A stretch of 61,090 bases of DNA, filler included, from 8 parts of 8 records of this genome joined end to end with filler, not necessarily neighbours in it, one strand, 5' to 3'; positions 8,043 through 53,691 are shown, counted from the whole stretch's first letter. Made by a program: numbers and translations. Notes: generated from the letters alone by a model not told the origin.

Positions 8043-8142
8043 NNNNNNNNNNNNNNNNNNNNNNNNNNNNNNNNNNNNNNNNNNNNTTAATTAATTAANN
8101 NNNNNNNNNNNNNNNNNNNNNNNNNNNNNNNNNNNNNNNNNN
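8043..8142. other. Artificial contig spacer
   Basis: N44-TTAATTAATTAA-N44. Confidence 0.99.
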
Positions 8143-11363: not shown

Positions 11364-11463
11364 NNNNNNNNNNNNNNNNNNNNNNNNNNNNNNNNNNNNN
11401 NNNNNNNTTAATTAATTAANNNNNNNNNNNNNNNNNNNNNNNNNNNNNNNNNNNNNNNNNNNN
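11364..11463. other. Artificial contig spacer
   Basis: N44-TTAATTAATTAA-N44. Confidence 0.99.
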
Positions 11464-17700: not shown

Positions 17701-18047
17701 GGAGGGATAGCCGCGCGGAAAACATGCGCAACGAAAGTCATCGTCGCTGCGCCCGTGGGAGGACACGTGGAGCAACCATCCTTACTGTCATCGTCGACGT
17801 ACTCTCGAGCCAGCTCTTGTGAGCGAGCCAGGAACGAAGAGCGTACGCTGCTTGCTGCTGACACGCGTTCACGAGTGAATGTTGTTCTCTGTGCCCACTG
17901 CTCGAAGTTGGATGCAGATCCGGGCTGGCGCGTGGGCTCGAGCTCCTCCAGCTCGGGCTCGGGCTCGGGCTCGGGCTCAACGTCGGTAATCGGGTCTGAG
18001 GGCTCCGGAGTCGCAGGCCGCGTAACATCAAGGAGCGGTGTCTCCAT
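11757..18047 (-). CDS. 2096-aa multi-pass membrane protein with a PHTF-like (7TM ion channel superfamily) C-terminus and a Cys-rich loop carrying a hevein-like motif
   Basis: Single ORF with more than 12 hydrophobic segments. [20 protein letters not shown]...[39 protein letters not shown] resembles the PHTF segment AERTYKQRLLFAKLFGHLT...[48 protein letters not shown] lies at ~13820..13860. The N-terminus has a PEPEPE tract. Confidence 0.7.
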   Translation of the reverse strand: [2096 protein letters not shown]

Positions 18048-18398: not shown

Positions 18399-18498
18399 NN
18401 NNNNNNNNNNNNNNNNNNNNNNNNNNNNNNNNNNNNNNNNNNTTAATTAATTAANNNNNNNNNNNNNNNNNNNNNNNNNNNNNNNNNNNNNNNNNNNN
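18399..18498. other. Artificial contig spacer
   Basis: N44-TTAATTAATTAA-N44. Confidence 0.99.
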
Positions 18499-28700: not shown

Positions 28701-31700
28701 TGACTAATAGCGTCAACACAAAGCTTGCTCTGTTGGCCAGTGACACCAGTTCGCTTCCGCAGCTTGCTTGCTGGCATCCGACTAGGGGCCGCACCATCAT
28801 CCCACTTGACTGTGTACTCTGCACCAGAAGCATGCACCGCAGCTATCGAAGCGTTTTGCCATACTGCAGTCCATCTCCAACCCTCCACGAGGTTGCCTGC
28901 GACGAAAGACCCTGCGGGACTTCCTCGTGTATCCTGAATAGCCGTGCACCGAGCTCCACCCCAGGCGCACACACGGTTGCCGTCGGGCAAAACAGCTGAG
29001 CAGGCAGCTTCCGTAAGAGCGGCCTCACACACGACCTTGTGCCTTGCCACGCACGCCGCAGACATGTTGGTTTCTTGGGGTGTGATCAACTCGGTGTTGC
29101 CCATAAGTAGATCTGCCTGCGAAGCACAGCGCTTTAAAGGGTTGTGGCTGGTCTCGTTGTAGTCATTCACGTCACCAAACTCACAAAAGATTGGCGGCTG
29201 GTCACGCTGTGTCGAGCGACGTTGGCACACCACCCCTTCCGCAGGTTTGAACGTACCAACGTTAGTCGAGACGGCGGGGTAACCCATCCACTCTGCCATC
29301 AAGCCGTCAGAAACTGGGCTTGCAGTTGCTCGACGGATATCGGTGCTGCCCCGCCTCTTGACTCCCACGTTGATGACAGCCTGCTGTGCTGTCAGCGGGA
29401 ATGCCATGACCCGAAGCTCGCAAATCGTGATCGCGCGGCTTCCGGGTTGTGCCACGGTCACATACTTTCCACTGTGCCTGCAAGAAAGGGCATCAGGGAC
29501 AGCAAGGTTGTTGCCGAGCGTTCCGCACAAGACGCCGGTGCCGTAAGCCGCTGATGTGCTGACGTAGACTCGGGCACCGACAAGTTCAGCGTCGCAAAAC
29601 ACGTTGCAGTTTGTCCGGTGATATATCTCGATCGCATCAATGTCGTACACGGCTCCCAGATCGACCTGCCACCACTCGTTGGTACCAGCATTTGTGTGGC
29701 TGCAGCTGTCAGCTAGGAAGTCCGAGCTGTCAATTCCGTCAACGGCCCGGCTAGCAGCCCCACCAAGTGCGGTGGACGATTGCGATGCACTTTTGTCCAG
29801 CGCTACATTGACAAGCGCAGTGCTTCTGATTACCACCGCGTCTCTCAAATCAATCAGCTCTCCGCCGAACCTGCTTTCTGCAGCAACGAGCTGAGTCACC
29901 AGGCTGTCTATCGCCATACCACCAGAATTGGTGTACTCTGCCCAGGCGTCAGATTCTGTGAGTGTCCGGTCCCAGATCTGCACCCTCTGCATCATACCGA
30001 AAAAGTAATCAGAGTAGGCCCCGTTCGCATCAAGGCGTGCACCAATCACCAGCGGCTGCTGACTGTTCATTGCGCCGGTATCCAGACTCTGAAGGCTGTG
30101 AGAACCTGCAATTAGCCCGTCGTGAAATGCTACCATTCCCCCATCTGCCCTGATGGTAAACAGGATGTGGCTCCACCCATGGACGAGACCGTCCTGAGTT
30201 GCCGCGCTAGTGCCAACGAAAAGCGTCGAGGAACTGCAAGCGGCACTGTGCAGCACAGCAAAGCGTTTTTCGTCGCTGACACCACCGCCCCACGAAACCA
30301 GAGATCTCAAAGGCAAGTCTCCTTCAGTACAATGATCTGGTCTGAACCATACTGAGACGGTGCGCATACTGGAGCCAGTGGGAACTCGTGGTCGGACGGC
30401 ACTGATGCTTTCGGAGCCATCAAACATTAACGCGGGCTGAGCAAGACCTGTCGGGACCTCGCAAGTATGTACCGCCAGCCCTGACCACAGGTTCGCATAA
30501 CCCAGCACGGCAAATGCACAGGATGGTACGCACGAACCATCGCACTCAGCCATACCCACTACACCGCAAACTGGGTGGGGTTCGTTGTACCGTGCCCAGC
30601 AGCTCTCACCGAATATTGTCGCAGCCACAGCCTCCGGGCGTCTCGACTGCACTAGGTCAGCGCATTCACCTGCGGTGCCAACTACGCCAATCTGTTCGTC
30701 CAGTCTCGCCCCACCACGGCATGTGAAGCTGAAACCAAATCCACTTTGCGCGGTATGGCCGTTGGACTCAAACTGGATGAGCACGTCTGGCGTACTGCCA
30801 GAGCGAATCTCTGCCTCGTTCAGTTCTCCGTGTAGCACTTCGCCCAGAACGCTTGCTAAATTTGACGGCCCGTCGAACACTCGGACATAATCACCATCTG
30901 CCTGCGTCGATACAGAATTGATGCTAACGACGGGTTGACCAACGGCACAGCTGAGACGCCACTGACAGTCTAACCCATGTCCATAATTGCCACCGTGCGG
31001 TGGAAACTGCACTTCGCCATGATTGACAAGCGCGGCGGTTCCGGTATTGGCAGTCAAACACGGGTGCGGCGAAAGACAAGGTGTATCAACGACAGCATCA
31101 GCACAACACCGAACCCCTAGATTCTGTGAGACGTCGGTCTGACATATGCGACTTCCATCACCATTGCCCTGCATAGACACAGCACCGCCAGTGCATGGAG
31201 TGGATGTCCAGACTTGCTGCAGATCGAAGCAACCGGTTCCTGTCGCTTCATCAGCAACCAGCTCGTCCGCAGTGCAAAGCCGTGCGCCTTGGGCGTGACA
31301 GATAGCAGTAGCGTGCCCAATACCCTCTACAACCGATGAATCGGCACCAAAGCAGGCTGGAGGGTCGATATCGGTCTCGCCATTGTGCGTAAGCCTGCTC
31401 GCGGCGCAGATGGAGTCGCTCCCAAATCCAGGTGGCCATCCTAGAGCATCGCACGACTCCGCTGACGTACACGAACCGCTGTCGGTGGTGGCTGCTCCTG
31501 GCGCAAACGTACACGCATCGACCCGGCGACCGCTTGGAAGATTGTCATCAAGACCCGGACCATAGAGATGGCAGTGACCATCTGCAACTCTGTGATCATA
31601 GGCCAAACAGTCCCCATTAGCGTCACAAGCTGCCTCACAATCTGCTGCTCCGACCGCATTCAAGGCCCGACCATTCACCCGGTCGTCCTCGGTAGTCCCG

Positions 31701-33598
31701 CGGCAGTGGCCGTCCCCAACATGAGTGTAGTTTCCGTGTGCTGCGCCCATCTGTCTGATAGTGTACTGCTCGGAGCACAAGTACTTGATGTGGCGCTCGG
31801 ATAGCTTGCCAGACGCGCTACCAGCAAATTGTGCACCCTCCTTTGCCATGACGGCAGAGTTTGCCGCTTCTGGTCGCGACAAACTGTCTGCTCGCCATCG
31901 TCCAAAATCTCGAGCAGAGTCGGCGACTTTCTGAACCAGCGTCCACCCTCCGCCATCGTTGGTCATGTCGCAATATACCTGGATATCGTCTGAATCCAGT
32001 GTCCTTGGGTCGATGATTATCGATATTGTGTACATGCCGTCCGGCGCCCCCGGGTCGCGGTCAAGAATGTCTCGACACGAAGCTGGTTTGAACACCTTTC
32101 CGGAAACTCCCGCTTTGCACGTACAGTCTTCCGCCGAGTCGGAACCGGTCATGTTTACAGTTGATGAATTGACTACGCATCCATGGCAGCCAAATGGCCC
32201 AGGTACCTCCTTGAACGTATCCGGGGGGCAGGCTGTGCAGTTGCCGGTGCCGCCGAGATCCCCAAGCTCCGAAGGGAAATAGCCCGGATCGCAGGCACAC
32301 TCAGACTGGCTGCTCGCCCCAGTTCGATGAAATGTCCCTGAATGAGCTTCGCATGCAGTGCAGGGCCCGGGTCCCGCAGCCTCTTTAAATGTGTCTTCTG
32401 GGCAGCGCTCGCACGTCGCATCCCCCCCGTCCAGTAGCGTTCCATGATACCCAGGGTCGCACAGGCATCCAGATTTCGTGCCATATCCCGGGTCACCCAG
32501 TCCAGAGCTACCAGAATTGGCAGGGCAAGAGACACACACGGCCGAGCCTAGGGCCGCCTTGAACGTTGCCGGTGGGCAGGCGACACATGTCTGGTCCGGA
32601 CTAGTGAGAGTGGCCGTGTACCCAGCACCGCATAGACAGCCTGAGACAGCCAGCGTGCCGATAGCGCGGGTGACGCTATGGGGTGGACACTCGTCACATA
32701 CGGTGGTGCTGGTATAGTATCGCCCCATTGGGCAGTCGCTACATTCTGTGGACGAAGCCATGTCGTGATCATACTTGCCAGGAGAGCATGGCACGCAATA
32801 TGTGGCCGAAACGTCAGCATATGACCCAGCAGCGCACGCTTGGCACACGGTCCCTGCGTTCGTATCCGTGTCCGCAAATCCTGCTGCGCAGTCGCTGCAG
32901 GAGACCGCATTCTCATCGGCGTACTGGCCGGCTGCGCAGTCTGTGCATGGGACATACCCAGTGGCGCTTGCTTTGCCTGGGGGGCACATCTGCTGGCACA
33001 AGGGGGCAGCAGCTTCTCCCGTGTACTTTGCGCATACAGGCCGATAGGCCCCAGCTTCGCCGGTGCCCGCGGCGCCAAACAAGTAGGCGTCGCTACCACC
33101 ATTCTCTTGCAGCGTCACGAAGCTCACCCACCCAGTGATCTCTGCGATTCCCGCGGTCGGATTGCAGCCTCGCTCCACCGGCAACCCAACACAGTAGTCC
33201 GGATGATCCTCGCTGCTGTGGCAGTGGAAAGAGCTGCTGCCACCGCATCCAGCGGGCCCCCAGGAGCCGTCGCCCTCATTTTCACACATCTCCACGTACG
33301 CTGCAACCCCCCAGCTGTTGTCATTCTGCGTGTTCGACCAGTCCGCAAGCGGGTCTTCAAGCAAGCAGATCCTGACGAACTGCCCATTCGGCCCGAGCTC
33401 CGGCTGCACGCCATCACTGCTGACCGTGCACTCAAATTTGCACGTGCCCTCAACCCGCCCAATCAGTAGAACGCCCAGGGCGATAACCAGGAGCACCAGC
33501 TCGCGGGGCTCCCAGTTCCACCCACGGCGCTTCTTCCCTGCAGCGCCGCCGCACACCGTCTCCTCCCTGCGCACTGCTCGCTTCCCACGCATCATCAT
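19769..33598 (-). CDS. Giant polycystin-1-like receptor (~4600 aa): signal peptide, ~20 GCC2/GCC3 (ephrin-receptor-like) Cys repeats, fibrinogen-like, PAN, C-type-lectin-like, CUB, LamG, F-type lectin, REJ, GAIN/GPS, 5 TM helices, coiled-coil tail
   Basis: Uninterrupted ORF; the start is ATG 33598 or 33655. Motifs: LVLLVIALGVLLIGRVEG/TC signal; VYCDMTNDGGGWTLV; YGHGLDCQW..DYVRVFDG (CUB); FFGMMQRVQIWDRTL (LamG); NVALDKSASQSS..ASRAVDG..WWQVDLG (F-type lectin); VTPRVGVAIEDTF..GWVDDDQPLTYTF (REJ); CSYWN..W..CSFNHLTDF (GPS); SRAQRV and WL..EPIRV (PKD1-type TM motifs). Confidence 0.88.
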   Translation of the reverse strand: MMMRGKRAVRREETVCGGAAGKKRRGWNWEPRELVLLVIALGVLLIGRVEGTCKFECTVSSDGVQPELGPNGQFVRICLLEDPLADWSNTQNDNSWGVAAYVEMCENEGDGSWGPAGCGGSSSFHCHSSEDHPDYCVGLPVERGCNPTAGIAEITGWVSFVTLQENGGSDAYLFGAAGTGEAGAYRPVCAKYTGEAAAPLCQQMCPPGKASATGYVPCTDCAAGQYADENAVSCSDCAAGFADTDTNAGTVCQACAAGSYADVSATYCVPCSPGKYDHDMASSTECSDCPMGRYYTSTTVCDECPPHSVTRAIGTLAVSGCLCGAGYTATLTSPDQTCVACPPATFKAALGSAVCVSCPANSGSSGLGDPGYGTKSGCLCDPGYHGTLLDGGDATCERCPEDTFKEAAGPGPCTACEAHSGTFHRTGASSQSECACDPGYFPSELGDLGGTGNCTACPPDTFKEVPGPFGCHGCVVNSSTVNMTGSDSAEDCTCKAGVSGKVFKPASCRDILDRDPGAPDGMYTISIIIDPRTLDSDDIQVYCDMTNDGGGWTLVQKVADSARDFGRWRADSLSRPEAANSAVMAKEGAQFAGSASGKLSERHIKYLCSEQYTIRQMGAAHGNYTHVGDGHCRGTTEDDRVNGRALNAVGAADCEAACDANGDCLAYDHRVADGHCHLYGPGLDDNLPSGRRVDACTFAPGAATTDSGSCTSAESCDALGWPPGFGSDSICAASRLTHNGETDIDPPACFGADSSVVEGIGHATAICHAQGARLCTADELVADEATGTGCFDLQQVWTSTPCTGGAVSMQGNGDGSRICQTDVSQNLGVRCCADAVVDTPCLSPHPCLTANTGTAALVNHGEVQFPPHGGNYGHGLDCQWRLSCAVGQPVVSINSVSTQADGDYVRVFDGPSNLASVLGEVLHGELNEAEIRSGSTPDVLIQFESNGHTAQSGFGFSFTCRGGARLDEQIGVVGTAGECADLVQSRRPEAVAATIFGESCWARYNEPHPVCGVVGMAECDGSCVPSCAFAVLGYANLWSGLAVHTCEVPTGLAQPALMFDGSESISAVRPRVPTGSSMRTVSVWFRPDHCTEGDLPLRSLVSWGGGVSDEKRFAVLHSAACSSSTLFVGTSAATQDGLVHGWSHILFTIRADGGMVAFHDGLIAGSHSLQSLDTGAMNSQQPLVIGARLDANGAYSDYFFGMMQRVQIWDRTLTESDAWAEYTNSGGMAIDSLVTQLVAAESRFGGELIDLRDAVVIRSTALVNVALDKSASQSSTALGGAASRAVDGIDSSDFLADSCSHTNAGTNEWWQVDLGAVYDIDAIEIYHRTNCNVFCDAELVGARVYVSTSAAYGTGVLCGTLGNNLAVPDALSCRHSGKYVTVAQPGSRAITICELRVMAFPLTAQQAVINVGVKRRGSTDIRRATASPVSDGLMAEWMGYPAVSTNVGTFKPAEGVVCQRRSTQRDQPPIFCEFGDVNDYNETSHNPLKRCASQADLLMGNTELITPQETNMSAACVARHKVVCEAALTEAACSAVLPDGNRVCAWGGARCTAIQDTRGSPAGSFVAGNLVEGWRWTAVWQNASIAAVHASGAEYTVKWDDGAAPSRMPASKLRKRTGVTGQQSKLCVDAISQSSCELTGPTPDVCAYIPSKPPNLRGFSTWGNIPGTTITDLHSGSDPLRMGSPVAYGRTTSDAGCSVAGGCHVQVFCKPPQIRSGIGECRMCLEDEFKDSNSGARCEACTAHSGTNGKLASESVTDCLCDLGYTGTLVDLDSICTACPADMYKDVKGPFSCTPCPANSNTAGRENRTDVSQCLCDPGYTGSATTGCIACVADKYKETSGSDRCLACPAESTTDTSDARGLRGDCKCNAGWTGDLSIHTIVCSQCAIDYFKSALGGQNCTLCPANSETVSSSANLNPSRNGGSSGAGIIGSANDDGVYFPVRSHAVAKQTGSATIHSCQCAPGYYMDGVAGNCAACPPDHYKEVYGDGACDRCADNSHTRGQSASYLVSQCLCDSGYYGPGALQGTQEFRGRSPAESSRGPLPQGLLTTSDSMCTACAVGTFKSTIGRADCEACLDESSDTDTATTASAMRGDCLCAIGYQGNMSIPGVTCRQCDSDTYKPTPGPMDCTRCPPNSGTRGAIGAIDGTHCSCDPGYVGGLVNGSVICEACPEGKYKASYGTGDCLLCPDSSYSSSNARSMSDCGCNQGYFGGEVISVGSWPSETEYAMDPTMLRELPAPCHTPLGSEYPAFCSPIEADGETQYVQYTGLLTGSNSRCFPCAAGWYKSNVGPHPCDRCPADSVTLEDKSDGVDDCKCNPGFFGDVSSSDGTCAPCDPNTYKAFVSVQPLQPCIECPDFSGTSGAYYSTSVDDCKCETGLEKVRFLNESEACMRCSPGMYKDTAGDAPCVSCPANAGTGYVPFAQNHDDYLKIHVIGATDITNCSCKPGYSGQISGTSSTCSMCSFGFFKAEYGAADCIECGPGTQALESWYVPPKVPDNKTVCACNPGFKQVQSQLNDAMVECEECPADQYKESQSSADECDACPDHSSTLTRRGVNISSACICNRGYSGSVSAGYDSSVSVSPCVACPPGKYKDEVGSGACMQCPVNANTKGPLDASPLHAATGVDQCYCNTGYIGTIAAPHDTCSECVSDSYTGTPGSVVCAPCPANTWTRGRRAVGTVRECYCVDGYVNDGGYRASNGTWLRGHGECVRCTVEYFRATQDLDCSGTIPPYVEIQPIDGNRAKINPSVRFALTASVEDGALLDWAAWDGPSEDRIDRRFQMDQPFLAPDTGVSDPFLIVAAGQLTPRSWYRVRLTATIRRPGDVKDTAGSVDLRFGVNDCPGGGEVSVTPRVGVAIEDTFVVRATGWVDDDQPLTYTFGLSRNASQPTSWMNRPTNNATFATFLPEGTRGVNDTYLQDLVVLVTDLYGAQTTHTTVVDVHPWYPAGSFVEEFETKLSQLENGTQVASAVGVMAFMLNMNASHMQNGTVEHTGAVEARQQLSEYLLTSMLATQDLNASERQSALSVFASSAAVVTAVTDQVSLKCMDSVISLLGLVTQTTALEAETAVSIASAADNIFIALDHGPVFPSAARVPRLVGVLNKVSAGVAARLVPGEPPEVLAVTKFVMETQKFRTTGSNGTKLANGLVTMPAMDITHLNESQWMNRTLSQSQDDSLVSQAIIWSDGFNPFAFGGVKPADEGVGETVALRSQIVSFSLFLDGNEVILRNLPEPVIVNISLHPTEYYRVPDTCRNAKCINTYDVAHYDGACADLLDKGRYNCDKHFCIGCPLAGFCDLSCSSECTHARDCLGPMMEPVQARNETDCLTTGHTWYPAIDKLCSPLTESPAPPPTDETNCTGGKRWVINPDPSAFVCLETSSQLVLSGMGQDPGPRYGPIMDATDCAQKGAAHHADNCGSLGLDNFNRCEHADSCIAPRGSSEADKAACAATTINGVDFSGRDASDRRVSCEATALSAGGGTCEYTPRGTACVPRTVCLSTLHEWHRPEYTCQTLSGRNAVPERLLSDEAECQNGNHWTTPRAGVCQHVDGRPVATANNQSACEISKNQWVPLEVREAAAEAAAISMNLNALNTSNTSNASLVDSVPSTFTCDLAPEVACSYWNPVSGRWMQDGIILEKTPNFMLCSFNHLTDFGAMIGAAPQAAELPSLIQTFRLESWEQGTIGLSVTGAILACLLFCCSGSAWRYLALSATRTRRLVKEQATGDPIKQGDYADAIFALKGFDSTVAFQEHVHTEIMLRTKWNIGALCIPLVGDPTSRAQRVVIILVAILCTMAVGLMFYKNPIFPTIDVCEGRPDVHGLSTNCSAVTIEQQIQECECKTYFSANGCEHCAVGPFEGASSRVGPRGAIQNCSDFCDEHVPSEVHAVMLTTFIVAILSLLVHQLLDHLHRPFLDMLRVEGTLLREAESDALKREREKALMDVKAVGSKRAFTKRSSRRLMRLPTELGSLQIDGAEQVDMAAAVQNAHDLDALPALPKRKVWYTTESGSHIPVAPQMRRQALKKLDDKRKATIIDLLLRKSVRYREDYKRIQKRKKELRAMPLPKLKIVAQRELKRLGKTSIDDQGRYVQDMQDALTFVREIPDYSPQLDDPAVHSRRIIVGVYLSILAIGACCAVVIAVHIVQLSAAFTMQWLHGCALSVAIHLVAVEPIRVLVVGHAKRRWHGLHREKDEKPGDELSIDTPDMIKLGGLSEEDQLAKDKDEIERAAEGIQQTTMDPGAEVLNQDVAFGKESRWASLTTSVTTRTKAAGAFKLALQQRSHISNSTNKSAAGEAMISLGPPASSGAEKFASGIAVAKASRKLAKKQRQLAKASLKLATFTQFLTAAQAEIIDNIVEAFHAMKNSHIMEKHVYERQQVDDEEEREILNVKLNVAMSRFDKLVEAFKVDVQQVTSGAPISQGLEDPMTHDLSDELLENNLTYDAIMDMYEEAIEKAKKKLGALQDGSALSESVQERLIEQKTGMRTKASRVEDLLAKYDRELDDVIENSSTLQLDESELMEAGLDPEQHPTSADEMESRADASVLDDNSEVMSPRRPMEPRPAGGTGRSTPVRSITLESSPLLSPPTAPAGTDVVPDGSATAAEDLTNEIETVTLLP

Positions 33599-34283
33599 CC
33601 CTGCACCAGCCCAACAGCCCTCCACACCCTCCATAGCGTCCAGGGTACGCTTCATCAGGCAGGCCGTCTGGCCTCCACAGCGTCCAGGGTACGCTTCATC
33701 AGTCGGCCTGCACGGCAACAACAGCAGCTGGCAGGATGCCAGCTGCCGCCATCATCATCGCGTCAATAGCATGGGACGCCCGACGGCGGACAGCCACACG
33801 ATCACACTACCGCATCCTACAGCCGACCTCCCGCCCTGGGGACCCAGCCTGCCTTGCCGCCTGCTGCCTGGGTGCGCGGTGAGGAGCACGGTGGCCGACC
33901 CAGGTACTCTTCCTTTACCGTGTTCTTGTCGCGCAGAGTTACCACATATTCGCATATTCGTACTTATTCGTATTAGTTTGCGAGGCATTCATACCATTGA
34001 CGGGTCCATGAATACGAGATTTGGCCGTGTGGCTCATGCAGCTGCATGAGCACGTGGACCCGTGCCGCCAGGGACTCCCGACTGCGACTCGCAAATTTGT
34101 ACGAACATGCCGGAGGGCAGCGGCCGTGTCGTTGGCGCAAATTTGTCGGCGGCGGGATTGGAGACCGGGTCTCCTGGGTTGGTATAATCCATCTTGAAAG
34201 CCGCGAGGCGACCACAAAAGCAGCTGCAGCCGGCCGGCAGGCGGCGCCGGGCTGGCGTGCTGAAACGCACGAAAAACGGCCAG

Positions 34284-34383
34284 NNNNNNNNNNNNNNNNN
34301 NNNNNNNNNNNNNNNNNNNNNNNNNNNTTAATTAATTAANNNNNNNNNNNNNNNNNNNNNNNNNNNNNNNNNNNNNNNNNNNN
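34284..34383. other. Artificial contig spacer
   Basis: N44-TTAATTAATTAA-N44. Confidence 0.99.
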
Positions 34384-35306: not shown

Positions 35307-38300
35307 ATGAGGCGCAAACGTGGCGATGGCGCGGAAACCCGCGATTTTGACATTTTTGAGACGGATAATCCGATGGCGGAAGGGGCAGGGGCAGGCAGCG
35401 ACGAGGATGAGGTGCGCACATACGACATTCCGCCAAGTGGGTCATCATGTTTCTTACCCGTGCGAATTGTTGAGCGCAGCCCCCCGCCGCTCCTGGAGAT
35501 GACACATCCCCGGTCAGTGGAGACCCAGGGGTGTTTGAGGTAGAAGACACAGATACCGGGCGCGGGGACGGGAGAGAACTTTCTCCGCAGGCCATTGGAT
35601 TGGGTGGGACGTGTTTGCTGGTTCTTCCGTGCCCTGTCTTCTTGAGCTACTACACGTTGATGGTCAACTCGGAAGTTTCAAATCTGGTCATCATCATCGC
35701 AGCCTGCATATACGTGTACATGCTGGGTGTAACTCTTCTGGGTATCTTCAGGTGCGTCCTTTCAAGGCGGTGTATCTTCCTGCCCTCTTGTGCTGATCAC
35801 ATGCGCGCGTCGTTTACTAGTGCTTGGGAGTTTCAAAATGGGTCGACAGACTCAATGCAGGTCTTGATGTTCTTGATCACCCTCGCGATTTGTCAACAAG
35901 GCAGCTTCCTCGGCGTGATCACCTCATCTGAGTGTTCGGGAGGAGAAGAAGAAACTTGCCTATACAGCTCGGTTGTAGACGAAACACTGCGCGACTTCGC
36001 TAGCAGTGCACAGGACCAATGCCGAGTGGGAGTTGCCACTGATGGCTATTACGTACCTTGGAGTAGCCTGTGTCCGTGTCTACAGGATCCAAGGCTAGAT
36101 GGCGAAGAGTCCGCTTCATGGGAAGTTGGCGAAGAGTCCGCTTCATGGGCTGGGGCTCCAAGCAACGCGACTTCTTCTGAACCAGACCTGGTGTGCATTG
36201 CAGATGTCCTGAAAAGCGCGAACAACCCACCCAGTGACTTACTTTTGGGGGCTTGGGTGGCGCTCTGGCTGGAAGTTTTAGTCTTCTCCGTCACGTTTGC
36301 AATTTTGTTCACGACTACGGCGCAAGCGCAAAAGAAAGCGGCCGATCAAAGTGGTGGAGCCCAAGTGGCAACGTTGCGCGGCACTTTGGTCGGTGGAACG
36401 GGTCTTCGTTCAGGACACTCCGGGATACCACACGCGCAGAGACACACCAACTATAGCCAACGCTATGTCGTCCTGTCTGTGTCCAACCCAGCTGTACACA
36501 AGCTGTCTCACCGCGCACAGCAGATCAAGACGCCAGAGTCAGAAGACGACCCAAATCCAACATGGAACCACGAGTTCACCGGCCTGGCACTGTACGCTGA
36601 TTCGAACAAACTAGATATTCAGGTATACGATCAGATTGAAGGCGAGCCTGTGCTGATCGGCACTGCGATTACGGCGGATAGTGGTGGAAGCACTGACGGG
36701 ATTTTCATGGACCTGGACGAAGGCAAGCTGACTAGCCCAGAGTACAAAATGAACGGTGACATTGACAAGATGGTCAGTATCCAGCTGTATCACAAAAAGA
36801 CTGAGGATCAGCCAAACCGACCTGCGGGGACGCTTCAGCTGATTCTGAACATGTATCCCGAGAACACAATGTTGCTGAGCACGATAACATCTGTGATCGA
36901 GCAGTCCTTAAAATACGAGGCTGTCATCTTCGCAATGGTGTTGCTTTCAATGCTTGATCTGGCTCTGTGGAGTCCAGCAGCTGCTCTTTCTCCGACGATG
37001 CTGGCCGGACTGCACATTATTGAGTTGTTCATCGTTTTGGAAATGTGTTTTGAACTTGTTATTGAGATCGAAGCTGCGCGCCGGCGAGGAGAGACACAGC
37101 TATGGAGGAAGCCTGTCTTCATATTTGGGGTCTACAATCTTGCTGCAAACATGGTCTGGCTCGTCCTTGATAAAACTCAGGGAAACCTGTGGGTGCAAAA
37201 GTTCGTAGCTGTTGGTAGAGTCACCCGACTGGCAAGGGGTATAGAGCGTTTTCGCATTCTTCCCGACGTAGATGTGATCGAAGATGCGCTGGGAGCTGCT
37301 TCACAACTGTTTGCAATGGTGCTTGTCCTCATGTTTATGTTGACGTTCATGTTCGCAATTATTGGAGTCAGCAGCTTTGGTGGGGCATTACAGTTCGAAT
37401 GTCTCCTAGACGGAGTTCAAGAGTGTGACCAAGCTCAGAATGAGGTCGCTAGTCGACTTGGTGTAGAGTGCCCTCTACGCTGCCCAATGACTCTTGCATG
37501 TGCCGTTGATGGATACACTTGGCCGTGGGAAGAGGCGATGGGACTGTTCGAGGCACCCGACAAGCGGTGCGCGCCTGTTCGAGAGCCAATCCCCGTTGGC
37601 TATGACTCGTTCGGGATCCGAGATTTCGACAACGTTTGGCGCGCAACGGTCACCATTCTGGTTCAAGCAACAGGAGATGGAGGCATGCACACGATACCGT
37701 TGGCACTAAGCAATGCTGGCGCACGGTTCACAGGTAGAGGGTGGTTAGTGTCATTCATCATCTCAGTTCTTCTGAACCTGGTATGCCTCAACTTGTTTTT
37801 ATCCGTAGTCTGCTCTGCGTACAGCCGTTCTGCGGCGAAAGCCACAATGGCTCGTGCTGAAGAAAAAGCAGCAAAGGAAGCAACTATAAAGGAAAGCATA
37901 GCTACCGAGACGGCCGAGGAACGCAAGACCCGCATTGCCATAGAGGAGGAGGTGCGTGAGAAAGGAAAACCGGTCGCTCAGAGATCGGAAGAAAAAGATT
38001 GGGTGGCAGACGGAAGTGCATGGATGCCTCCACCCATTCGAATGACTTTGAAGAATATTGTACTTTCTGATTTATTCGAGACCGTGGCCTCCCTGATAAT
38101 CTTGGCAAACACAGTGACGATGTTAATGGCCCACGATGGGATGAGCGAGCAGATGGAATCAATATTGCAGGGGTTTGAAATGTTCTTCTTGTTTTGCTAC
38201 GTTGTGGAATCCATAATGATTTTTGTGGCACAGGGGTCGCAGCTCTTCTTTGAGTCGTCAGAAAACAGATTTGACCTGTTTGTCATTCTTACTTCAATCA

Positions 38301-41300
38301 TGGGGACCGTTGCAGAGTTTCAGCCGGAGCTAGTGGCCAAATTATTTGGAGGTGTCGATCTCGGGTCCGTGCAGTCGTTCCGTGCTGTGCGACTGCTGCG
38401 GGCCCTCCAGCTAGTGCGACTGGTTGGCGGACAAGGAGCATTAATTACCATCATGGGATGTATCTTCAAAGCCTGGCGACCGATTGTTCTTCATCTAGTG
38501 TTCTGCAGCTTTTTCATGGCGGTGTTTGCGATCACTGGAATGCATCTATTCGGAGGGGCACTTCGGGAGTGCGAGCAATCTCAATGCACGCTCGATGACT
38601 ACGAACGGGCACTTCCAGAGAATTTTGAAAGTTTTGGAGTTGGTATGCTGACTGTGTTTGAGTTAACTGTTGGATTGGATTGGTCACGATCTATGTACTG
38701 GTATACTGAACATGCGTCTCAGTCCATCGGCTATCCACAATGGATGGTCCAAGTTTTCTTCTTGATAATGGTGATTTGGATGAACTGCATTCTTTTCTCG
38801 ATGTTCTCAGCAATCTTAATCCACAACTTTGGACACCCAGAAGATAACCGATTCAATATGCAGAAACGAATTTATGGACGCCAGGAAAGACGGACAGCAC
38901 GGATGCTAAAACGACTTCGGGAAGCATTGGATCTCCGAAGTGCTGCGCACGAGGAAGAAAAGCTAGCAGAACACATCAGCCGTGCTGACATGGCATCGCT
39001 ACTTCAACACCACCACAAAAACAATGACGATGACGATATAAAGAACAGGTCACTGTATTGCTTCTCACTGAATAGCATTGTTCGCGACTGGTGTGCACAG
39101 AAGCTGGAGCAGCCCTCGTATCGGAGGAGGGTGATGCAAATGATCGTATTCTCGTGCATTGCGTTGGCTGTGGAGGGACGCGGTGAGCAAGGCATGGGTG
39201 CTGTTGCAGCTTCTGTGACATTCGTCAAAGACTTTGTGGGCTTCAGCTACTTCTCCGTCATCAACGTGCTGGTGTTCCTATTTTTCGTCGAAGAAGCCAT
39301 ACTGAAAATCATTACACACGGATTCATCTTAACATCTGGACCAACAAAGCCATACCTGCAGAAGAGGATGGATCAGCTGGACTTTTTCATCATCGTAGTG
39401 TGCTTCCTTTCCTTTCTTCCCTTCGATACATTTGCTGGACCATGGGTTAGAGCTCTGCGGGTCACTGCAGTAGCAAGACTAATTGGTCCACTACTAGACA
39501 AGACAGACGACCCACAGATATCGCTCGTGTTGATGTCATTCGGGCGCTCAATTCAGGATATTATGTTCGCGATGTTGCCGGTGGTAGTGATAGGACTCAT
39601 GTTTGCTATCGTTGGCGTCGCATGGTTTACTGGTACTCTCTCATACTGTGCAGCTCTACAAGATCCGTTGGCACCACTTCCGTCAGTGGATGCAGAGACA
39701 TGTGCTGCATACCATGAGCTGGCATTGAACACAAGTGCAGGCGCTATTTCCGATTCTGCCCCTGGATCCTGGAGCGCAACTGATTCTGAGTCAGAATCGG
39801 GATCTTGGGTGGATGATATCGTGCGCGCCCCTCTCGGCTTCAGTTGGGAGACGCCTGTGCTAACATTCGACGATTCTATTACTGGAATGGCATCACTCCT
39901 AGTCGCTGCTATAGACGGAAGTCATGAGTTCATGCTGAAAATGGCCGCGAGCTCTACGTCCTCATACTCGTACTGGGTCGTATTTCACCTCGTTTTCACT
40001 TGCTTCTTCGTCAATCTCTTTCTGTGCGTTCCTGTCGCTTCGTTTGCTGCAAACTCTGGCAGATCATTGATGACACTTGGCGAGCTTCAGAGGAGTGCTT
40101 CGGCACTGATGATTCAGAACTTCGAGCCAGGCAAAGTAGTTGGTGCTAACGTTGAGGAATTACGGCCACGGCGCGACTCTAAATGCTTGTGTTGCCAAAA
40201 AGCCCCGTCGTGGTGGTTTTCTCTGCGACAACTTGGGTTCAATATTGGGATCAACGATCGTTTGGAGTATATCTTTCAATTTATAACTCTAGCGAATGCC
40301 TTTGTACTGGCAACTGACACGTATCCAATCAACCAGTTCGAATTGCCTCATCGCGAGCTAGTCACCATTTTGAACATGCTGTTTCTGGTCATCGGTGCAG
40401 CCGAAGTTACACTGAAGCTCTTTGGATTCGGTCCAGCCGATATATTTGCTGATAAGTGGCTTGCGACAGACTTGCTGCTTGTGTACCTAGCAATAATTAT
40501 GGCCTTCGCGGGTGGGCGTAGTGGCATCGAGGTATTGCGGTGTATTCGCGTTGCTCGTATCTATGGAGTGGCAGTGCGTTTGCCAGGAATCGTCGCGCTG
40601 ATTGACATACTCATGGCAAGCATCAAAGCTAGCCTAGCTGTGATTGTTCTTGTGGCGCTCACAGTGTACATTTACAGCATTATGGGGATGTTCATGTTTG
40701 GTGGCTTGCCAACCAATGATAAGCTTCGTGCACTAGGCTTCACCGAGGAATCACCTGGATCTGGCTTTGACACCTTGCGCGAAACGGACGAGTTTTTTGC
40801 GACTGTGTGCCCTTCATGCAGCACCATAAGCCCATACACTAACTTTAACAACTTTGTCGCTTCCTCACAGTCACTGATACAAATGACATTTGGTCAGGGC
40901 ATCCGGGGATTTATCGAGGACCTGCAGTTCTTGGGATCGGGCTGGATGGGTACATACGCATATTTCGCGTCATTTTACATTGTTACAGTGTGGGTTTTCA
41001 TGAACATACTGGTCGCCACTGTGCTACGGAACTTCGACGCCGCCAATACATCTATGTCTGTTGGCAAGGAACCGATTGCCCCCTTTGATCTGGACGGGTT
41101 TGCGCACACCTGGGCTTCTTTATCCATAGGTGTTCAGCGCGCAAAGGCGCTGGAGCGCACTGGTGGCCTGCTACTGGGACATCTGCGTGGAGTCCTTGAA
41201 GAGGAGGAAGAAGGTCTTTCTGAAGGGATAGTTTCTGCCTGCTTTGAGGACGGCGCAGACGGTCAGACGGGTACCCTTTCTGTGACCGTCCTCAGTGTTA

Positions 41301-44300
41301 GTGGCCTCCGCGATCCTAAATCGACTCCATACTGCGCTGTCACGCTGCACAACAGGAACGTCGAGGGTCGCGATGCACAATGCACACGTACAGGAGCCAA
41401 CAAAAACGGGACTGCGAGCTTCCAGCCGAGGCAACCACCCCATGACCATCTACTCGGCGGTTTAGTGGATGGTCTTGGAGGCGTAGCGAAGGGTATTGGT
41501 GGCGTAGCAACGGGAGGCATTACAGGTGGTCTTGGCAATGTAGCGGGAGGTCTTGAAAGTCTTGGTGGGGGGCTCCTTGGGGCGATAGGCAACACGTTGC
41601 CTTTCAGCAGTGCGATTAAGCAGGACAACCACTTTCAATTCCATACGACAACATATACCACACACCTGACGTTTCAGTTGCACGAAGCATTCCAATTCGA
41701 AGATACGCTGCTCGGTGCATACAGCATTCCAATGAATAGTGCCGCTGGCCTCTCGCTGTTGCGGATGAGTTCAGCGGCAAGCAAGGAGGTTCAGTTGGAG
41801 CTGCTTATCAACGATGTTGGTAAAGTTGAAGCAGCTCTGGATGGCGAGGCAGACCGGTGGAAGCTATATAATACAGATATTACTGCCGTCGGTGACGTGG
41901 CTTCTGATGGAGAGGAAGGAGCTGACAGTGATTCTGGTGATGACGAGATCGTTGACCGTGAGGGCGCTGACGACGCCACCGACGATGACGACGAAGGTGT
42001 CGCCGTTTCTGGCAAGAAAAAAGCCAAGAAAACAGCGAAGCAGAAGGGGAAGTCGAAAAGGAATCTCAAAAACTTAGAACAGGAGCAAACATACGATCTA
42101 GAAGCAGCCTTGGCTGAAGCTGCCCCCACTGCAGACGCCATTCGTGAAGCCACGAAGGATGCTGCTGTCCATAGTGAAAAACTCGAGCAAGCACAAAAGG
42201 AAGCAGCAGCCCGACCGAACGACGCTCCCATCCCACGGCTCAGCAAGAAGCCCAAACTCGAATTTCCACCACGTGGCGAGTACCCATCTGATGATGAGGA
42301 CGAGCAGGACGACGAGGACGCTAATATCCCCAACCCATACGAAGGCTGGCAGCCCACTGGCATCAAACTTAAGGTGACCATTGAGTTCCTTCCTCTGGTG
42401 AACAACGTTCCGAAGACTCAGTGGCTGGGTGATCACGCCATTGCCTACCCAAGTATGCAAGCGACATGTGGAACAGAAGGCTGGCTGGAACTATCTGAGG
42501 CTGGCAACCCTTTCAAACGACGATACTGCTTTCTGCAGGCTTTCCCAGAGCCATGCTTCAAATTCTACCGAGATTGCAAAAGCGTAGCGGAGCTTGAACA
42601 GCGAAGCAAGCGCACCAAGCTGCGCGTGCAGAAAATTCTGGGTCAAAACATCATGAGCCTCAATGAGGGCCATGACTCAAAAACCTATGCTCGACGAAAC
42701 CAGTTCCATCACAACTTTCAGATGGAAGCCGAACAGGTTGTGGATGGTGGTGGTCTTGTCGAGCAACGTGTGGGTTTCTTGACCGGAGAGATCGTTGCAG
42801 CAGAGAACCTCACCGATTCACAGGCAGAGACTTGCACACTCTGCAAACGCCTATACTTTGAGGACCTCGACGACATCCATGATGACGATGATGACGAAGA
42901 GGACGATGGTGATGACGAAGAGGACGATGATGATGACGAGAACGCTGAGGATGCTGAAGAGGAAAACCGCATTGGGGCGAGCGGAATACCTCCTGAACTC
43001 ATCGTCGCGCAGTCATTTACAGTTGAGGACCGCCCTGACCAAACAAATATCAGACCCACACGCTATATGGCCGCAAGCCGTACGACCATTCGGCTGTCTC
43101 CCGATCCAAGAGCCACCAAAGTCGGCACGGTGGCGAAAGGGACTGTCGTCACTGTTGTTGCCCATAAGATTTTCGACGGTGTGAAGTTCTTGAGAACGAG
43201 TGATGGATGGATCGCCGGAAACAGTGAGCACCGGAATAACGTCCTCATGATTGCCGAAGACTCACAGGCGCACTACTTTCGAATTTTGAAAGAAGTCACA
43301 ATCGGCAAGGAGCTGTCGATAGCTGAGAATATTGATGCTGAGCCTGTGGGAACCTTGCCCAGAGGATGCGTAGTGGAGGTCATTTCGAGCAAGAAACACT
43401 TGTACCGTCCTGGAACAACCGCTGCCGATGCGCGGGAGGAGCGAGTGGCTCGCTCGGACGAATGTAAGTCGCTGAGTCTCCACGAGCTGAGGGAGCGTGC
43501 ACAGCAGATGGAGATTGACGATGATGATATTGCGGAGGCCCTCGACGATGAGAACCCCAAAGCAGAGCTGATAGAACTGATCCTCGATGCAGGTGATGTC
43601 AAAGGCGATGAGGTCGCAGTCATCAGGCATAAGGTAAAATGCGACTTAAGAGGTGTGCTGTACGGCGGTCCCAGTGGAAATTGTGATGGTTGGATCAGCG
43701 AATCTGATATTAACGGTAACATTACAACCGACACCTACTGCGTTGTTGAGACCGTGCCAGATATACCTGATAACACACCAAACACCCTGAGAGTGGCCAG
43801 ACGGGCTACTCAGAAGGCCCGATCACCTGTCATCGTGAACGACACGAATCCTGTTTGGCAAACCAAATTCGCTTTCAACGTGTACAACTCATGCTATACG
43901 ATCAGAGTATCTGTACGCGAGGAAGGCACGGACGAGGAGGTTGGGTCGGCGACGCTCATGCTTGGAATGGAAGCCGGCAAACGGTCTACAGATGGCATTC
44001 CTGGACCTATGCTGCAGACTCCTAGCGCAAAGAATGTCGAGCTGAGCATGGCAGACCTAACCGAACATCGTTTTCCCATTTCATCGTCCAAGGCCAATCA
44101 AGGCACGGTTGCCATCCGGCTGGGCTACGAGCAGCTGGTATCACATGACGACATATTCGAGAGTTACCAAGCTGCTCTTGCAGATGACAAGAGTGCAACT
44201 CTTGTGTCGTGCATGATGGTGCCCGATACGCGGCTGGTGAGGTTCCGGTTTCAGGCGCCAAATCCGACGATTCAGCGTGCATGGCTAGCAGCAATGAAGT

Positions 44301-45448
44301 GGGTCGCAAAGGGCTGCCCACGTGACGCTAAGCCGCGTGACGTCAAACTTCCTATCAATCTTCTCGCCACCTCTGACAGCAAGCGTGCAGAGCGGGATCT
44401 CAGCCTGGTCGACCTGCCATTTTCAAGAGTTGGACAACTACTACACGGGCTATATCTCCGCCGCGTAATGGGTCGGCGCAAGCCAACACTTCGACACGTG
44501 GCCTACACCGTTTTCCAGCTTGAAACACATTGTTTTGGTCCAGATAATCAAGACACTGCTCGAAAGCGAGGCATTCGAGGGGACGCAGATAAAGAAGGAG
44601 TATATCTGAGTGACCTGCGTGGTCTACGTTTCAATGCCACGTTGGAACGACTTATAATGACATACTATGGCAAGCGTCGCTGCTTGTCTTACCGCGACCA
44701 GGTGGAGGAATACGAGGTCGAAGCGCGCAGTATTGCATCTCAGATCATCCGTACCATGGTGTCACGTTGGGTGTTCAAGACGTGCGCTCGACTGGGCAAG
44801 ACTGTGGATGGACAGCCGTGGCCTTATCATCCATGTTGGCGCAACAACCCCGAGCTGTACGCTATCGCAGCAGACGCTGCCTGTGCTCAGCGAATGTACA
44901 CTCTCCGCAAACTGTGGTCCGAAGTGCAGCGCCAGTCTAAGCCAGAGTCTGGACTAGAGGAGAATGATCAGGTATCTGAGGCACTAGCGAGTGACAATGA
45001 TCCTATACCAGGGACTGGTGCTGACCCCTCGTTAGTTGAAAGTCTTCCTGTGGAGAACGGGGATGTGCCAGTAGACGACCTGGTTCACGAGACCCCAGAG
45101 ACGAGGAGGGAGCGTATCGGTGCTGCGTTTGCGCGCATCCGGGAGAGACATGATCTCACGGACGGCCCCGAAGACGAGCTTGAGGCTAGGCAGCTATTTG
45201 ATGTGCTGCCTCTGCTTAATGGTGTTGTGCTCACTCCTGACGACTTCAAGCTCATCGTCAACGCACTGGGGTGGTCGATGGACACAATTGTGTCGGTGGA
45301 CGAGCTCAGTAGAGCTTTCGAGACACTTGAAGTCCCTGCAGTTGACTTACTGCTTCACGACGACGATGAGAATCCTGACCTGGATAACTTTGACAACTTT
45401 GGTCTCGACCCACAGGAGGCGCTCCGAGCACTCGTGAACAAGCTGTAG
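35307..45448 (+). CDS. Four-domain voltage-gated cation channel alpha subunit (Nav/Cav superfamily), 3357 aa, with extra N-terminal TM helices and C2, PH, SH3b-like and EF-hand-like domains; exons 35307..35411 and 35480..45448
   Basis: Four 6TM repeats with S4 segments (GRVTRLARGIERFR, FRAVRLLRALQLVR, VRALRVTAVAR, LRCIRVARI), pore helices (DFDNVW, NFESF, TFDDS, NFNNF) and S6 ends (LNLFLSVV, MNILVATVLRNF). Phase-0 intron 35412..35479 (GTGCGC..GCAG) links an upstream ATG exon in frame. Confidence 0.93.
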
Positions 45449-49261: not shown

Positions 49262-49361
49262 NNNNNNNNNNNNNNNNNNNNNNNNNNNNNNNNNNNNNNN
49301 NNNNNTTAATTAATTAANNNNNNNNNNNNNNNNNNNNNNNNNNNNNNNNNNNNNNNNNNNN
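49262..49361. other. Artificial contig spacer
   Basis: N44-TTAATTAATTAA-N44. Confidence 0.99.
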
Positions 49362-53591: not shown

Positions 53592-53691
53592 NNNNNNNNN
53601 NNNNNNNNNNNNNNNNNNNNNNNNNNNNNNNNNNNTTAATTAATTAANNNNNNNNNNNNNNNNNNNNNNNNNNNNNNNNNNNNNNNNNNNN
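53592..53691. other. Artificial contig spacer
   Basis: N44-TTAATTAATTAA-N44. Confidence 0.99.

What the first reader, a model, noticed from the sequence alone, without database searches (positions are those of the whole stretch)
37622..40920. Four-domain channel with an atypical D/L/D/Q selectivity filter
Seen: manual alignment of the pore loops to Cav/Nav consensus puts Asp in repeat I (ATG-D-GG, 37676), Leu in II (TVG-L-DW, 38675), Asp in III (AAI-D-GS, 39914, one-residue deletion) and Gln in IV (TFG-Q-GI, 40895). The conserved Trp at +2 survives only in repeat II. Known filters are EEEE/EEDD (Cav), DEKA/DEEA (Nav) and EEKE (NALCN). Inference: the channel has new or relaxed selectivity, or is a non-conducting voltage-sensor scaffold. 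The ORF is intact, so simple decay is unlikely.
Basis: partly seen in the sequence, partly recalled or inferred. Interest (0 to 1): 0.8.

Follow-up and report, generated by a model that had tools for sequence, protein, structure and literature searches.

The report
Picozoan four-repeat channel, odd pore filter
This is an intact gene for a voltage-gated four-repeat cation channel of a tiny marine protist whose ion-selecting ring reads Asp/Leu/Asp/Gln instead of the usual acidic ring; it belongs to an undescribed, protist-specific channel family, so its ion preference cannot be read from known channels.

Summary
One stop-free ORF (35531..45448, 3305 codons) encodes a four-repeat Cav/Nav-type channel. 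Three alignment methods place D716, L1049, D1462 and Q1789 at the selectivity-filter positions, and an AlphaFold model puts each in or at the edge of the loop between the two pore helices. Trp at +2 survives only in repeat II.

The filter is not a one-off. The gene belongs to a family of at least 15 full-length relatives whose baseline filter is D/E/D/Q, with one Trp. That family sits in a larger clade whose only organism-labelled members are Picozoa. Only the Glu-to-Leu change in repeat II is specific to the window's gene and its 67%-identical relatives. Leu also became fixed independently in a second clade.

Pore loops are more conserved than the rest of the protein, S4 charges and S6 asparagines are kept, and population variants lean synonymous. 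Decay is therefore unlikely.

Best reading (inferred): a working voltage-gated cation channel with weakened divalent binding. A non-conducting sensor is not excluded.

This is a new variant of a known kind. Atypical protist filters are already on record in general.

The parts
35531..45448 (+). Stop-free ORF of 3305 codons (stop included in the end coordinate). The whole four-repeat channel gene, with no intron.
   Evidence: 100% identical to P0002; 67.5% identical to P0003 along its length from about aa 95
35801..35803 (+). Probable start codon (M91). Similarity to the relative P0003 begins here. It is followed by a signal-peptide-like hydrophobic stretch, a Cys-rich segment and one extra TM helix (aa ~247-270); that topology is read from the sequence, not tested.
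   Evidence: first 100 aa are 4% identical to P0003, later blocks 53-88%
36443..36667 (+). N-terminal C2 domain (aa 305-379)
   Evidence: Pfam PF00168, E 2.5e-5, 24.9 bits against cut-off 22
36851..37855 (+). Repeat I (aa 441-775). S4 carries R563, R566, R569, E572, R573, R575.
37676..37678 (+). Filter residue of repeat I, D716 (TGDGGMH; no Trp at +2)
   Evidence: model residue 83, in the loop between helices 69-80 and 88-95
38066..38845 (+). Repeat II (aa 846-1105). S4 carries R951, R954, R957, R963. This is the most conserved repeat (83% identical to P0003).
38675..38677 (+). Filter residue of repeat II, L1049 (TTG), followed by D1050 and W1051. The family baseline here is Glu.
   Evidence: model residue 416, between helices 402-413 and 418-432; confirmed by DNA contigs of X3 and X4
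39101..40060 (+). Repeat III (aa 1191-1510). S4 carries R1307, R1310, R1316 and a 3-residue insert. S6 reads NLFLCVPVASF where the family has NLFLGVLSASF.
39914..39916 (+). Filter residue of repeat III, D1462 (IDGSH). The loop is one residue shorter than in canonical channels.
   Evidence: model residue 829, last residue of helix 816-829, next helix 832-839
40286..41035 (+). Repeat IV (aa 1586-1835). S4 carries R1670, R1673, R1676, R1683.
40895..40897 (+). Filter residue of repeat IV, Q1789 (FGQGIR; no Trp at +2)
   Evidence: model residue 1156, between helices 1142-1153 and 1158-1167
41270..41404 (+). Weak C2-like match after repeat IV (aa 1914-1958), below Pfam's cut-off
   Evidence: PF00168, E 0.017, 15.7 bits against cut-off 22
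43727..43969 (+). C-terminal C2 domain (aa 2733-2813)
   Evidence: PF00168, whole-protein E 3.1e-16; E 6.2e-7 on the C-terminal piece
34284..34383 (.). Spacer (N44-TTAATTAATTAA-N44) marking the left end of the contig that holds the gene
49262..49361 (.). Spacer marking the right end of that contig

Best explanation
The gene encodes a working voltage-gated four-repeat cation channel. It belongs to a protist-specific family in which every member that carries an organism label is Picozoa. The family's selectivity filter is D/E/D/Q, with a Trp at +2 only in repeat II. Family members also carry Gly-rich filter loops, conserved His residues in the loops of repeats I and III, and C2 domains on both cytoplasmic ends.

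The window's gene is a fast-diverged paralogue. On its stem branch the repeat-II Glu became Leu. At the same time the S4 of repeats I and II and the S6 of repeat III also changed. The new state has been conserved since then.

Shown here: the identity, fold, filter residues, family context and conservation.

Inferred: the channel still opens with voltage, because S4 arginines and the S2/S3 counter-charges are kept. It still conducts. With only D716, D1462 and the +1 Asp D1050 as carboxylates, and no Lys, it should bind Ca2+ far more weakly than an EEEE or EEDD ring. It would then pass cations with little discrimination. In sea water that would make it mainly a Na+-carrying depolarising channel that admits some Ca2+. 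The C2 domains could couple it to Ca2+ or membrane lipid.
For: Fold and family. Four Ion_trans stretches. PDB sequence matches to Cav3, Cav2, Cav1 and Nav channels. AlphaFold model of aa 634-1832 with pLDDT 79.6 and pTM 0.80. Foldseek best hits are Cav2.2, Cav2.1, Nav1.7 and Cav1.2, E down to 7.5e-28, TM about 0.6.

Filter..

Family baseline. Of 15 full-length family members, repeat I is D in 14, repeat II is E in 12, Q in 1 and L in 2, repeat III is D in 15, and repeat IV is Q in 14. Trp at +2 is present in 0, 15, 0 and 0 of 15 for repeats I-IV. Among 97 other channels the counts are 96, 95, 92 and 82.

Tree. P0001+P0003 (support 100) are nested in the 19-row family (100). Their stem branch of 0.62 is the longest branch drawn inside the family, and their tips are short (0.20 and 0.14).

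Leu is maintained. Three relatives also read D/L/D/Q: P0003, and P0196 and P0199, two further full-length members of P0003's cluster. A second clade fixed Leu independently: P0056 and P0121, 67% identical to each other, both read GLEWSKV.

Constraint. Pore loops are 77-88% identical to P0003 and repeat II 83%, against 67.5% overall. P0001 and P0003 both keep 303 of the 423 positions that are at least 90% conserved in the other family members. S6 asparagines are kept in all four repeats. S4 arginines are kept. Of 15 variants in metagenome contigs, 7 are synonymous, 8 are not and none lies in a pore loop; pN/pS 0.35, p 0.042.

Presence. Near-identical DNA is in seawater metagenomes. Contigs from two RNA libraries lie on the ORF.

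Mechanistic background, recalled rather than tested here: single Glu substitutions in the Cav1.2 EEEE ring lower Ca2+ affinity but leave a conducting channel. Fux et al. 2018 (PMC6259924, passages seen) state that animal channels always keep electronegative residues in repeats II and III.
Against: No ion selectivity, conduction or gating was measured. The step from filter residues to selectivity is an extrapolation from animal channels, whose filters keep four Trp; this family keeps one.

Coordinates of the model could not be inspected. Whether L1049 or D1050 faces the pore is therefore unknown.

The clade also lost S4 charges (R572E, R967G, K969G) and gained Cys and Pro in S6 of repeat III. 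Those changes could equally fit altered or lost gating.

Transcription is not proven, because contigs of an RNA library may derive from DNA. One RNA-library contig carries a 1-nt deletion at 36182 that neither DNA run shows.

The variant count is small (15) and p is only 0.042. dN/dS against P0003 could not be computed because no DNA of P0003 was found.
Confidence: 0.5

Rival explanations
1. It is still a Ca2+-preferring channel. D716, D1462 and the +1 Asp D1050 (Glu in P0003), together with backbone carbonyls of the Gly-rich loops, form a divalent site good enough for Ca2+ entry. The Leu merely tunes conductance or block.
For: The acidic residue at +1 of repeat II is kept in both members of the clade (D in P0001, E in P0003). 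It aligns with the +1 Asp of repeat II that Fux et al. call the 'calcium beacon' of animal calcium channels (PMC6259924, passage seen). C2 domains here, and EF-hand Pfam families in relatives P0004, P0010 and P0011, suggest the family works in Ca2+ signalling.
Against: Only three carboxylates remain, one of them off the ring. No acidic residue was gained in any pore loop among the 96 clade-specific changes. Three of the four Trp that stabilise canonical filters are absent.
Confidence: 0.25
2. It is a non-conducting voltage sensor or scaffold. The pore is closed or blocked by the hydrophobic Leu, and the protein signals through its large cytoplasmic C2-bearing tails.
For: A hydrophobic residue sits at the narrowest ring position. 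The clade changed the S6 of repeat III (G1499C, L1501P) and lost S4 charges. About 1470 residues of conserved cytoplasmic C-terminus are 70% identical to P0003.
Against: Pore loops are conserved above the protein's average. S6 asparagines are kept in all four repeats. Leu was fixed twice independently within nearly the same local motif (GLDWS/GLEWSK in this clade, GLEWSK in the second) and then conserved, which looks like a selected pore state. One Leu among four positions need not close a pore.
Confidence: 0.12
3. It has a different selectivity altogether, for example K+, H+ or a transition metal. That selectivity would be set by the Gly-rich loops and the conserved His residues of repeats I (GGMH) and III (DGxH).
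For: In repeat I, His is present in all 14 family members that cover the loop. In repeat III it is present in 14 of 15 (P0014 has Asn). The filter loops DGG, DG and QG lack the Trp ring.
Against: No test was possible and no known channel gives a precedent with this motif. No paper came up in the one motif-word search.
Confidence: 0.1
4. It is a decaying gene copy or an assembly or sequencing artefact.
For: It sits on the longest branch drawn inside the family. One 1-nt deletion appears in a single RNA-library contig.
Against: The frame is open for 9.9 kb. The Leu codon is confirmed in two independent metagenomes. TTG differs from either Glu codon at two bases. Three diverged relatives keep D/L/D/Q. 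pN/pS is 0.35.
Confidence: 0.03

Closest known systems
[quoted passage not shown]
   Same: Four 6-TM repeats in one chain, arginine-bearing S4 segments, P1-loop-P2 pore modules, S6 asparagines, and a fold that matches solved Cav and Nav structures.
   Different: The filter is D/L/D/Q with no Lys and only one Trp at +2. There is an extra N-terminal signal-like segment, one extra TM helix and a C2 domain, plus C-terminal C2 domains. In the tree it falls in a 46-row clade separate from the 11 Cav1, Cav3, Nav and other rows used as outgroup. The root was set on those rows, not inferred.
Cav3 (T-type) calcium channels, filter EEDD
   Same: They are the best sequence matches among solved structures (7wli, 9ayg). 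Asp also sits at the ring in two repeats.
   Different: Identity is only about 20%. Cav3 channels keep Glu in repeat II and Trp in all four repeats (P0026, P0089). They were placed in the outgroup of the tree.
Atypical protist FVCC filters catalogued by Pozdnyakov et al. 2018 (PMC5824947; sections 6 and 10 read)
   Same: The paper reports a 'great variety' of filter motifs in protists. Examples are E/S/L/L, E/Q/D/E and N/D/D/N in Paramecium, D/D/D/D in ciliates, and T/E/N/D in Chlamydomonas. All are of unknown selectivity.
   Different: D/E/D/Q and D/L/D/Q are not mentioned in the sections read, and a term search of that paper for 'C2 domain' and 'DEDQ' found nothing. Its Figure 3 and supplements, which list every motif, could not be seen.
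Sister paralogues in the same and related organisms (P0006/P0015-type D/E/D/Q channels; P0062 D/D/T/Q; P0056 D/L/A/Q)
   Same: The repeat-I motif TGDGGMH/Q, Gln in repeat IV and the same overall architecture. P0015 and P0062 carry the same assembly prefix as the window's protein.
   Different: The window's gene has Leu where 12 of 15 family members have Glu. Both it and P0003 differ from the family at 96 of the 423 positions that are at least 90% conserved in the other members.

Membership tests
Four-domain voltage-gated cation channel superfamily (FVCC) | Four homologous 6-TM repeats in one polypeptide | tested here: met
   Pfam Ion_trans in 4 stretches, E 1.8e-93. AlphaFold model and Foldseek hits to Cav and Nav chains over about 1200 columns.
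Four-domain voltage-gated cation channel superfamily (FVCC) | S4 helices with Arg/Lys at every third position | tested here: met
   Repeat I: R563, R566, R569, R573, R575. Repeat II: R951, R954, R957, R963. Repeat III: R1307, R1310, R1316. Repeat IV: R1670, R1673, R1676, R1683. Some charges are lost relative to the family.
Four-domain voltage-gated cation channel superfamily (FVCC) | Re-entrant pore loop (P1 helix, filter, P2 helix) between S5 and S6 in each repeat | tested here: met
   DSSP on the model gives helix pairs 69-80/88-95, 402-413/418-432, 816-829/832-839 and 1142-1153/1158-1167. pLDDT of these blocks is 84-89.
Voltage-gated calcium channels (Cav1/2: EEEE; Cav3: EEDD) | Four acidic residues at the filter ring | tested here: not met
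   D/L/D/Q.
Voltage-gated calcium channels (Cav1/2: EEEE; Cav3: EEDD) | Trp at +2 in all four repeats | tested here: not met
   Trp only in repeat II. Of 97 other channels, 77 have four Trp. Fux et al. report the ring in all the channels they illustrate except repeat I of Cch1p.
Voltage-gated calcium channels (Cav1/2) | AID motif in the I-II linker and IQ motif in the C-terminus | not tested
   No motif search was run. Pfam reported none of the Cav-specific families (PF16905, PF08763) that the database lists for the Cav1-type hits P0027 and P0029.
Voltage-gated sodium channels (Nav1: DEKA) and NALCN (EEKE/EKEE) | Lys in the filter of repeat II or III | tested here: not met
   Leu in repeat II and Asp in repeat III.
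D/E/D/Q family (this report; unnamed) | TGDGGMH in repeat I, VG[E]DW in II, TDGxH in III, FGQ in IV; Trp only in II; C2 domain(s) | tested here: met
   All motifs are present except Glu in repeat II. The gene is nested in the family with support 100. C2 domains.

The most novel reading that the evidence does not exclude
The D/E/D/Q channels, and the D/L/D/Q branch in particular, are a new selectivity class of four-repeat voltage-gated channels. Their filter is built without the Trp ring, from Gly-rich loops, two Asp, one Gln and conserved His residues. Removing the repeat-II carboxylate gives picozoans a lysine-free route to a Na+-carrying (or otherwise non-Ca2+) voltage-gated current. That state evolved twice in parallel within the lineage.
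Probability: 0.2. Interest if true: 0.7.

Novelty: new variant of a known kind. Interest (0 to 1): 0.42.

Why it matters
Sodium selectivity in four-repeat channels is thought to need a Lys in the filter, and animal channels always keep acidic residues in repeats II and III. Here a large, conserved, apparently lineage-specific radiation breaks three of those rules at once: it has no Trp ring in three repeats, Gln in repeat IV and Leu in repeat II. It therefore offers a natural experiment on how much of the canonical filter is really needed for conduction and selectivity. It also gives a first molecular handle on excitability in an uncultured group of marine picoeukaryotes. If the channel proves to be a plain, weakly selective cation channel, the value is mostly a catalogue entry.

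Tried and rejected
- The whole genome is not held, so paralogues and any canonical EEEE channel of the same organism could not be sought.
- dN/dS against the nearest relative was not possible. Two scans of metagenome contigs gave no DNA of P0003, only L001 (37% identical) and L002.
- phmmer of the repeat-IV pore module alone against the PDB gave 0 hits. Repeat IV therefore rests on MAFFT, hmmalign and the model.
- Residue-level superposition on Cav1.1 or Cav3.3 was not possible. The tools return scores, not coordinates.
- The Protein Atlas search returned only generic Ion_trans clusters.
- The search for shorter relatives gave 2 hits and nothing new.
- I first read the neighbouring 4650-aa REJ-domain ORF as a divergent partner gene. 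I rejected this because the window is a chain of separate contigs.
- RNA-library contigs lie on the ORF, but no RNA contig covers bin 38540-38893, which holds the Leu codon, and DNA carry-over cannot be excluded. Expression is not claimed.
- The 'skips' in DNA run X3 (38482-40665, 41994-42299) have only 21 letters on the shorter side and are taken as other organisms or repeats, not introns.
- Literature. A whole-word search for DEDQ/DEEQ/DLDQ with 'selectivity filter' returned 1 unrelated paper. 'Picozoa' with 'voltage-gated' returned 1 unrelated preprint.
- Only 4 of the 23 listed runs were laid.


Full report
**What is there.** The finding lies inside one stop-free reading frame, 35531..45448 on the + strand, of 3305 codons. 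Pfam finds four Ion_trans stretches (E 1.8e-93) and C2 domains. The best sequence matches among solved structures are Cav3.3, Cav3.2, Cav2.3, Cav1.2 and Nav1.2, at E 1.6e-50 and weaker.

- D716 at nt 37676
- L1049 at nt 38675
- D1462 at nt 39914
- Q1789 at nt 40895

The window is not one molecule. Seven spacers of the form N44-TTAATTAATTAA-N44 join eight contigs. The gene's contig is 34384..49261. Neighbours beyond those spacers therefore say nothing about this gene.

**Are these the filter residues?** Three methods agree.
- MAFFT with named Cav1, Cav3 and Nav proteins aligns D/L/D/Q with the canonical E/E/E/E, E/E/D/D and D/E/K/A columns.
- HMMER pairwise alignments to Cav3.3 and Cav3.2 give the same pairing for repeats I, II and III.
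- hmmalign of all 192 collected proteins to a core profile gives D/L/D/Q again.

As a control, those same columns return EEEE for 59, EEDD for 12 and DEKA for 3 of the 138 other full rows.

An AlphaFold model of aa 634-1832 (42-row alignment, pLDDT 79.6, pTM 0.80) places D716, L1049 and Q1789 in the short loop between the two pore helices of their repeats. D1462 is the last residue of its first pore helix, ahead of a two-residue loop.

Foldseek matches the model to Cav2.2, Cav2.1, Nav1.7, Cav1.2 and others, with E down to 7.5e-28 and TM about 0.6.

D1050 next to the Leu aligns with the +1 Asp that canonical calcium channels carry in addition to their ring Glu. Coordinates could not be inspected, so side-chain orientation is unknown.

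The protein is 100% identical to a EukProt entry with the prefix COSAG02. It has a 67.5%-identical relative, P0003, and a family of further relatives at 35-45% identity.

Among 15 full-length family members the ring residues are:

| Repeat | Residue counts |
|---|---|
| I | D in 14 |
| II | E in 12, Q in 1, L in 2 (P0001, P0003) |
| III | D in 15 |
| IV | Q in 14 |

Two more members of P0003's cluster, P0196 and P0199, are also D/L/D/Q.

Trp at +2 is present in 0, 15, 0 and 0 of 15 for repeats I-IV. Among 97 other channels collected the counts are 96, 95, 92 and 82, and 77 of those channels have all four. Fux et al. [quoted passage not shown] So the family-wide traits, one Trp and Gln in repeat IV, are at least as unusual as the Leu.

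**Phylogeny.** I built a maximum-likelihood tree with IQ-TREE (quick search, LG+G4, 57 rows chosen by me from the 192 aligned, 1219 columns, SH-aLRT support only).
- A 46-row clade (support 100) sits apart from the 11 canonical rows used as outgroup. It carries mostly Asp in repeat I and Gln in repeat IV.
- Inside it, the 19-row D/E/D/Q family has support 100.
- P0001+P0003 (100) are nested in that family on a stem of 0.62, the longest branch drawn inside the family. Their tips are short (0.20 and 0.14).
- P0056 (D/L/A/Q) lies in a different sub-clade. Together with P0121, which is 67% identical to it, it carries GLEWSKV. Leu in repeat II was thus fixed twice and kept each time, in nearly the same local motif (GLDWS/GLEWSK in this clade, GLEWSK in the second).

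The root was set on the outgroup and is not inferred.

**Which organism.** All six relatives that carry an organism label are labelled Picozoa sp. in EukProt: P0205, P0056, P0012, P0062, P0088 and P0243. The prefix of the window's own entry, COSAG02, is labelled Picozoa on P0062. The same assembly prefix also holds P0015, sister of the D/E/D/Q protein P0006, and P0062 (D/D/T/Q). The organism therefore has several paralogues of this radiation.

**Is it under constraint?**
- Against P0003, identity is 67.5% overall, 83% in repeat II and 77-88% in 26-residue windows around the four filter residues. It is 4% in the first 100 codons, so translation probably starts at M91, nt 35801.
- There are 423 positions at least 90% conserved in the 13 other members of the family alignment. 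Both P0001 and P0003 keep 303 of them and both differ at 96. The differences include E1049L, R572E/T573R (S4 of repeat I), R967G and K969G (end of S4 of repeat II), and G1499C and L1501P (S6 of repeat III). No acidic residue was gained in any pore loop.
- S6 asparagines are kept in all four repeats.

**Presence in public runs.** Words of the 3.6-kb core are held by 19 listed runs from 16 studies, mostly seawater metagenomes. Two of those rows may be the source itself. I laid four runs.
- DNA contigs of X3 and X4 cover the gene in pieces, with 0-5 differences in the pieces listed. They span the Leu codon without change.
- Contigs from two RNA libraries (X14, X15) lie on parts of the ORF. This does not prove transcription.
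- The 15 variants inside the ORF split into 7 synonymous and 8 non-synonymous (pN/pS 0.35; one-sided binomial p 0.042). None lies in a pore loop.
- One RNA-library contig has a 1-nt deletion at 36182 that is absent from both DNA runs.

**How it probably works.** The fold, four arginine-bearing S4 helices, intact pore modules and conserved gate residues argue for a voltage-gated, conducting channel.

The ring has two Asp, one Gln and one Leu, plus the +1 Asp in repeat II, and it has no Lys. By analogy with Glu substitutions in Cav1.2 (recalled, not tested here), such a ring should bind Ca2+ weakly and discriminate poorly among cations. In sea water that would mean a mostly Na+-carried depolarising current with some Ca2+ entry.

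C2 domains lie on both cytoplasmic ends, and relatives carry EF-hand families. Both suggest regulation by Ca2+ or lipid.

All of this section is inference. I put it at about 0.5. The rivals are:
- a still Ca2+-preferring pore (0.25)
- a non-conducting sensor (0.12)
- a different selectivity involving the conserved His residues (0.10)
- decay or artefact (0.03)

**Comparison and novelty.** The protein meets the defining features of the four-domain voltage-gated cation channel superfamily. It fails the filter definitions of Cav (acidic ring, Trp ring) and of Nav/NALCN (Lys).

Pozdnyakov et al. 2018 already reported a 'great variety' of protist filters, including E/S/L/L and E/Q/D/E in Paramecium (PMC5824947, sections 6 and 10 read). 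An odd filter in a protist channel is therefore not new in kind. Two earlier notes of this scan on Ostreococcus channels say the same (not tested here).

I found no mention of D/E/D/Q, D/L/D/Q, a single-Trp filter or C2-flanked channels in what I could read or search. That paper's Figure 3 and supplements were not visible.

I rate the finding a new variant of a known kind, with interest 0.42.

Noticed in passing
window 3688-3787, 8043-8142, 11364-11463, 18399-18498, 34284-34383, 49262-49361, 53592-53691: Seven spacers of the form N44-TTAATTAATTAA-N44. The window is a chain of eight separate contigs joined by all-frame stop linkers, so gene order across the spacers carries no meaning.
   Followed up: yes
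window 19769-33721 (-): A 4650-aa ORF on another contig. It carries REJ, many Ephrin_rec_like repeats, F5/8 type C, Laminin_G_3 and a fibrinogen-like piece, so it looks like a giant polycystin-1/REJ-like surface receptor.
   Followed up: partly
window 49310-51973 (-): An ORF with an integrin-beta VWA domain, EGF and Kelch repeats. Its low-coordinate end (49310) lies inside the spacer's TTAATTAATTAA linker (49306-49317), so the ORF runs to the contig's end and is probably cut at its C-terminus.
   Followed up: no
window 11757-18047 (-) and 3805-8094 (+): Long ORFs of 2096 and 1429 aa with no Pfam family at E <= 1e-5.
   Followed up: no
window 42788-43141: An acidic low-complexity stretch (Asp/Glu runs) inside the channel's C-terminal tail. 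It draws summed contig depth of 55 to 2433 in all four runs laid, evidently from unrelated repeats.
   Followed up: no
window 36182: One contig of RNA library X14 lacks one base here. DNA runs X3 and X4 do not show the deletion. It may be an error or a rare variant.
   Followed up: no
P0056 and P0121 (relatives, not in the window): A second clade of the same radiation independently carries Leu at the repeat-II filter position, in nearly the same local motif GLEWSK.
   Followed up: yes
window 37685-37690 and 39923-39925 (M719-H720, H1465): His residues just after the filter are conserved across the family: GGMH in repeat I and DGxH in repeat III. Their role is unknown.
   Followed up: no
window 35801-36440: Before the first C2 domain the protein has a signal-peptide-like segment, a Cys-rich stretch and one extra TM helix. 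These are shared with P0003. This addition to the channel's N-terminus was read from the sequence only.
   Followed up: partly
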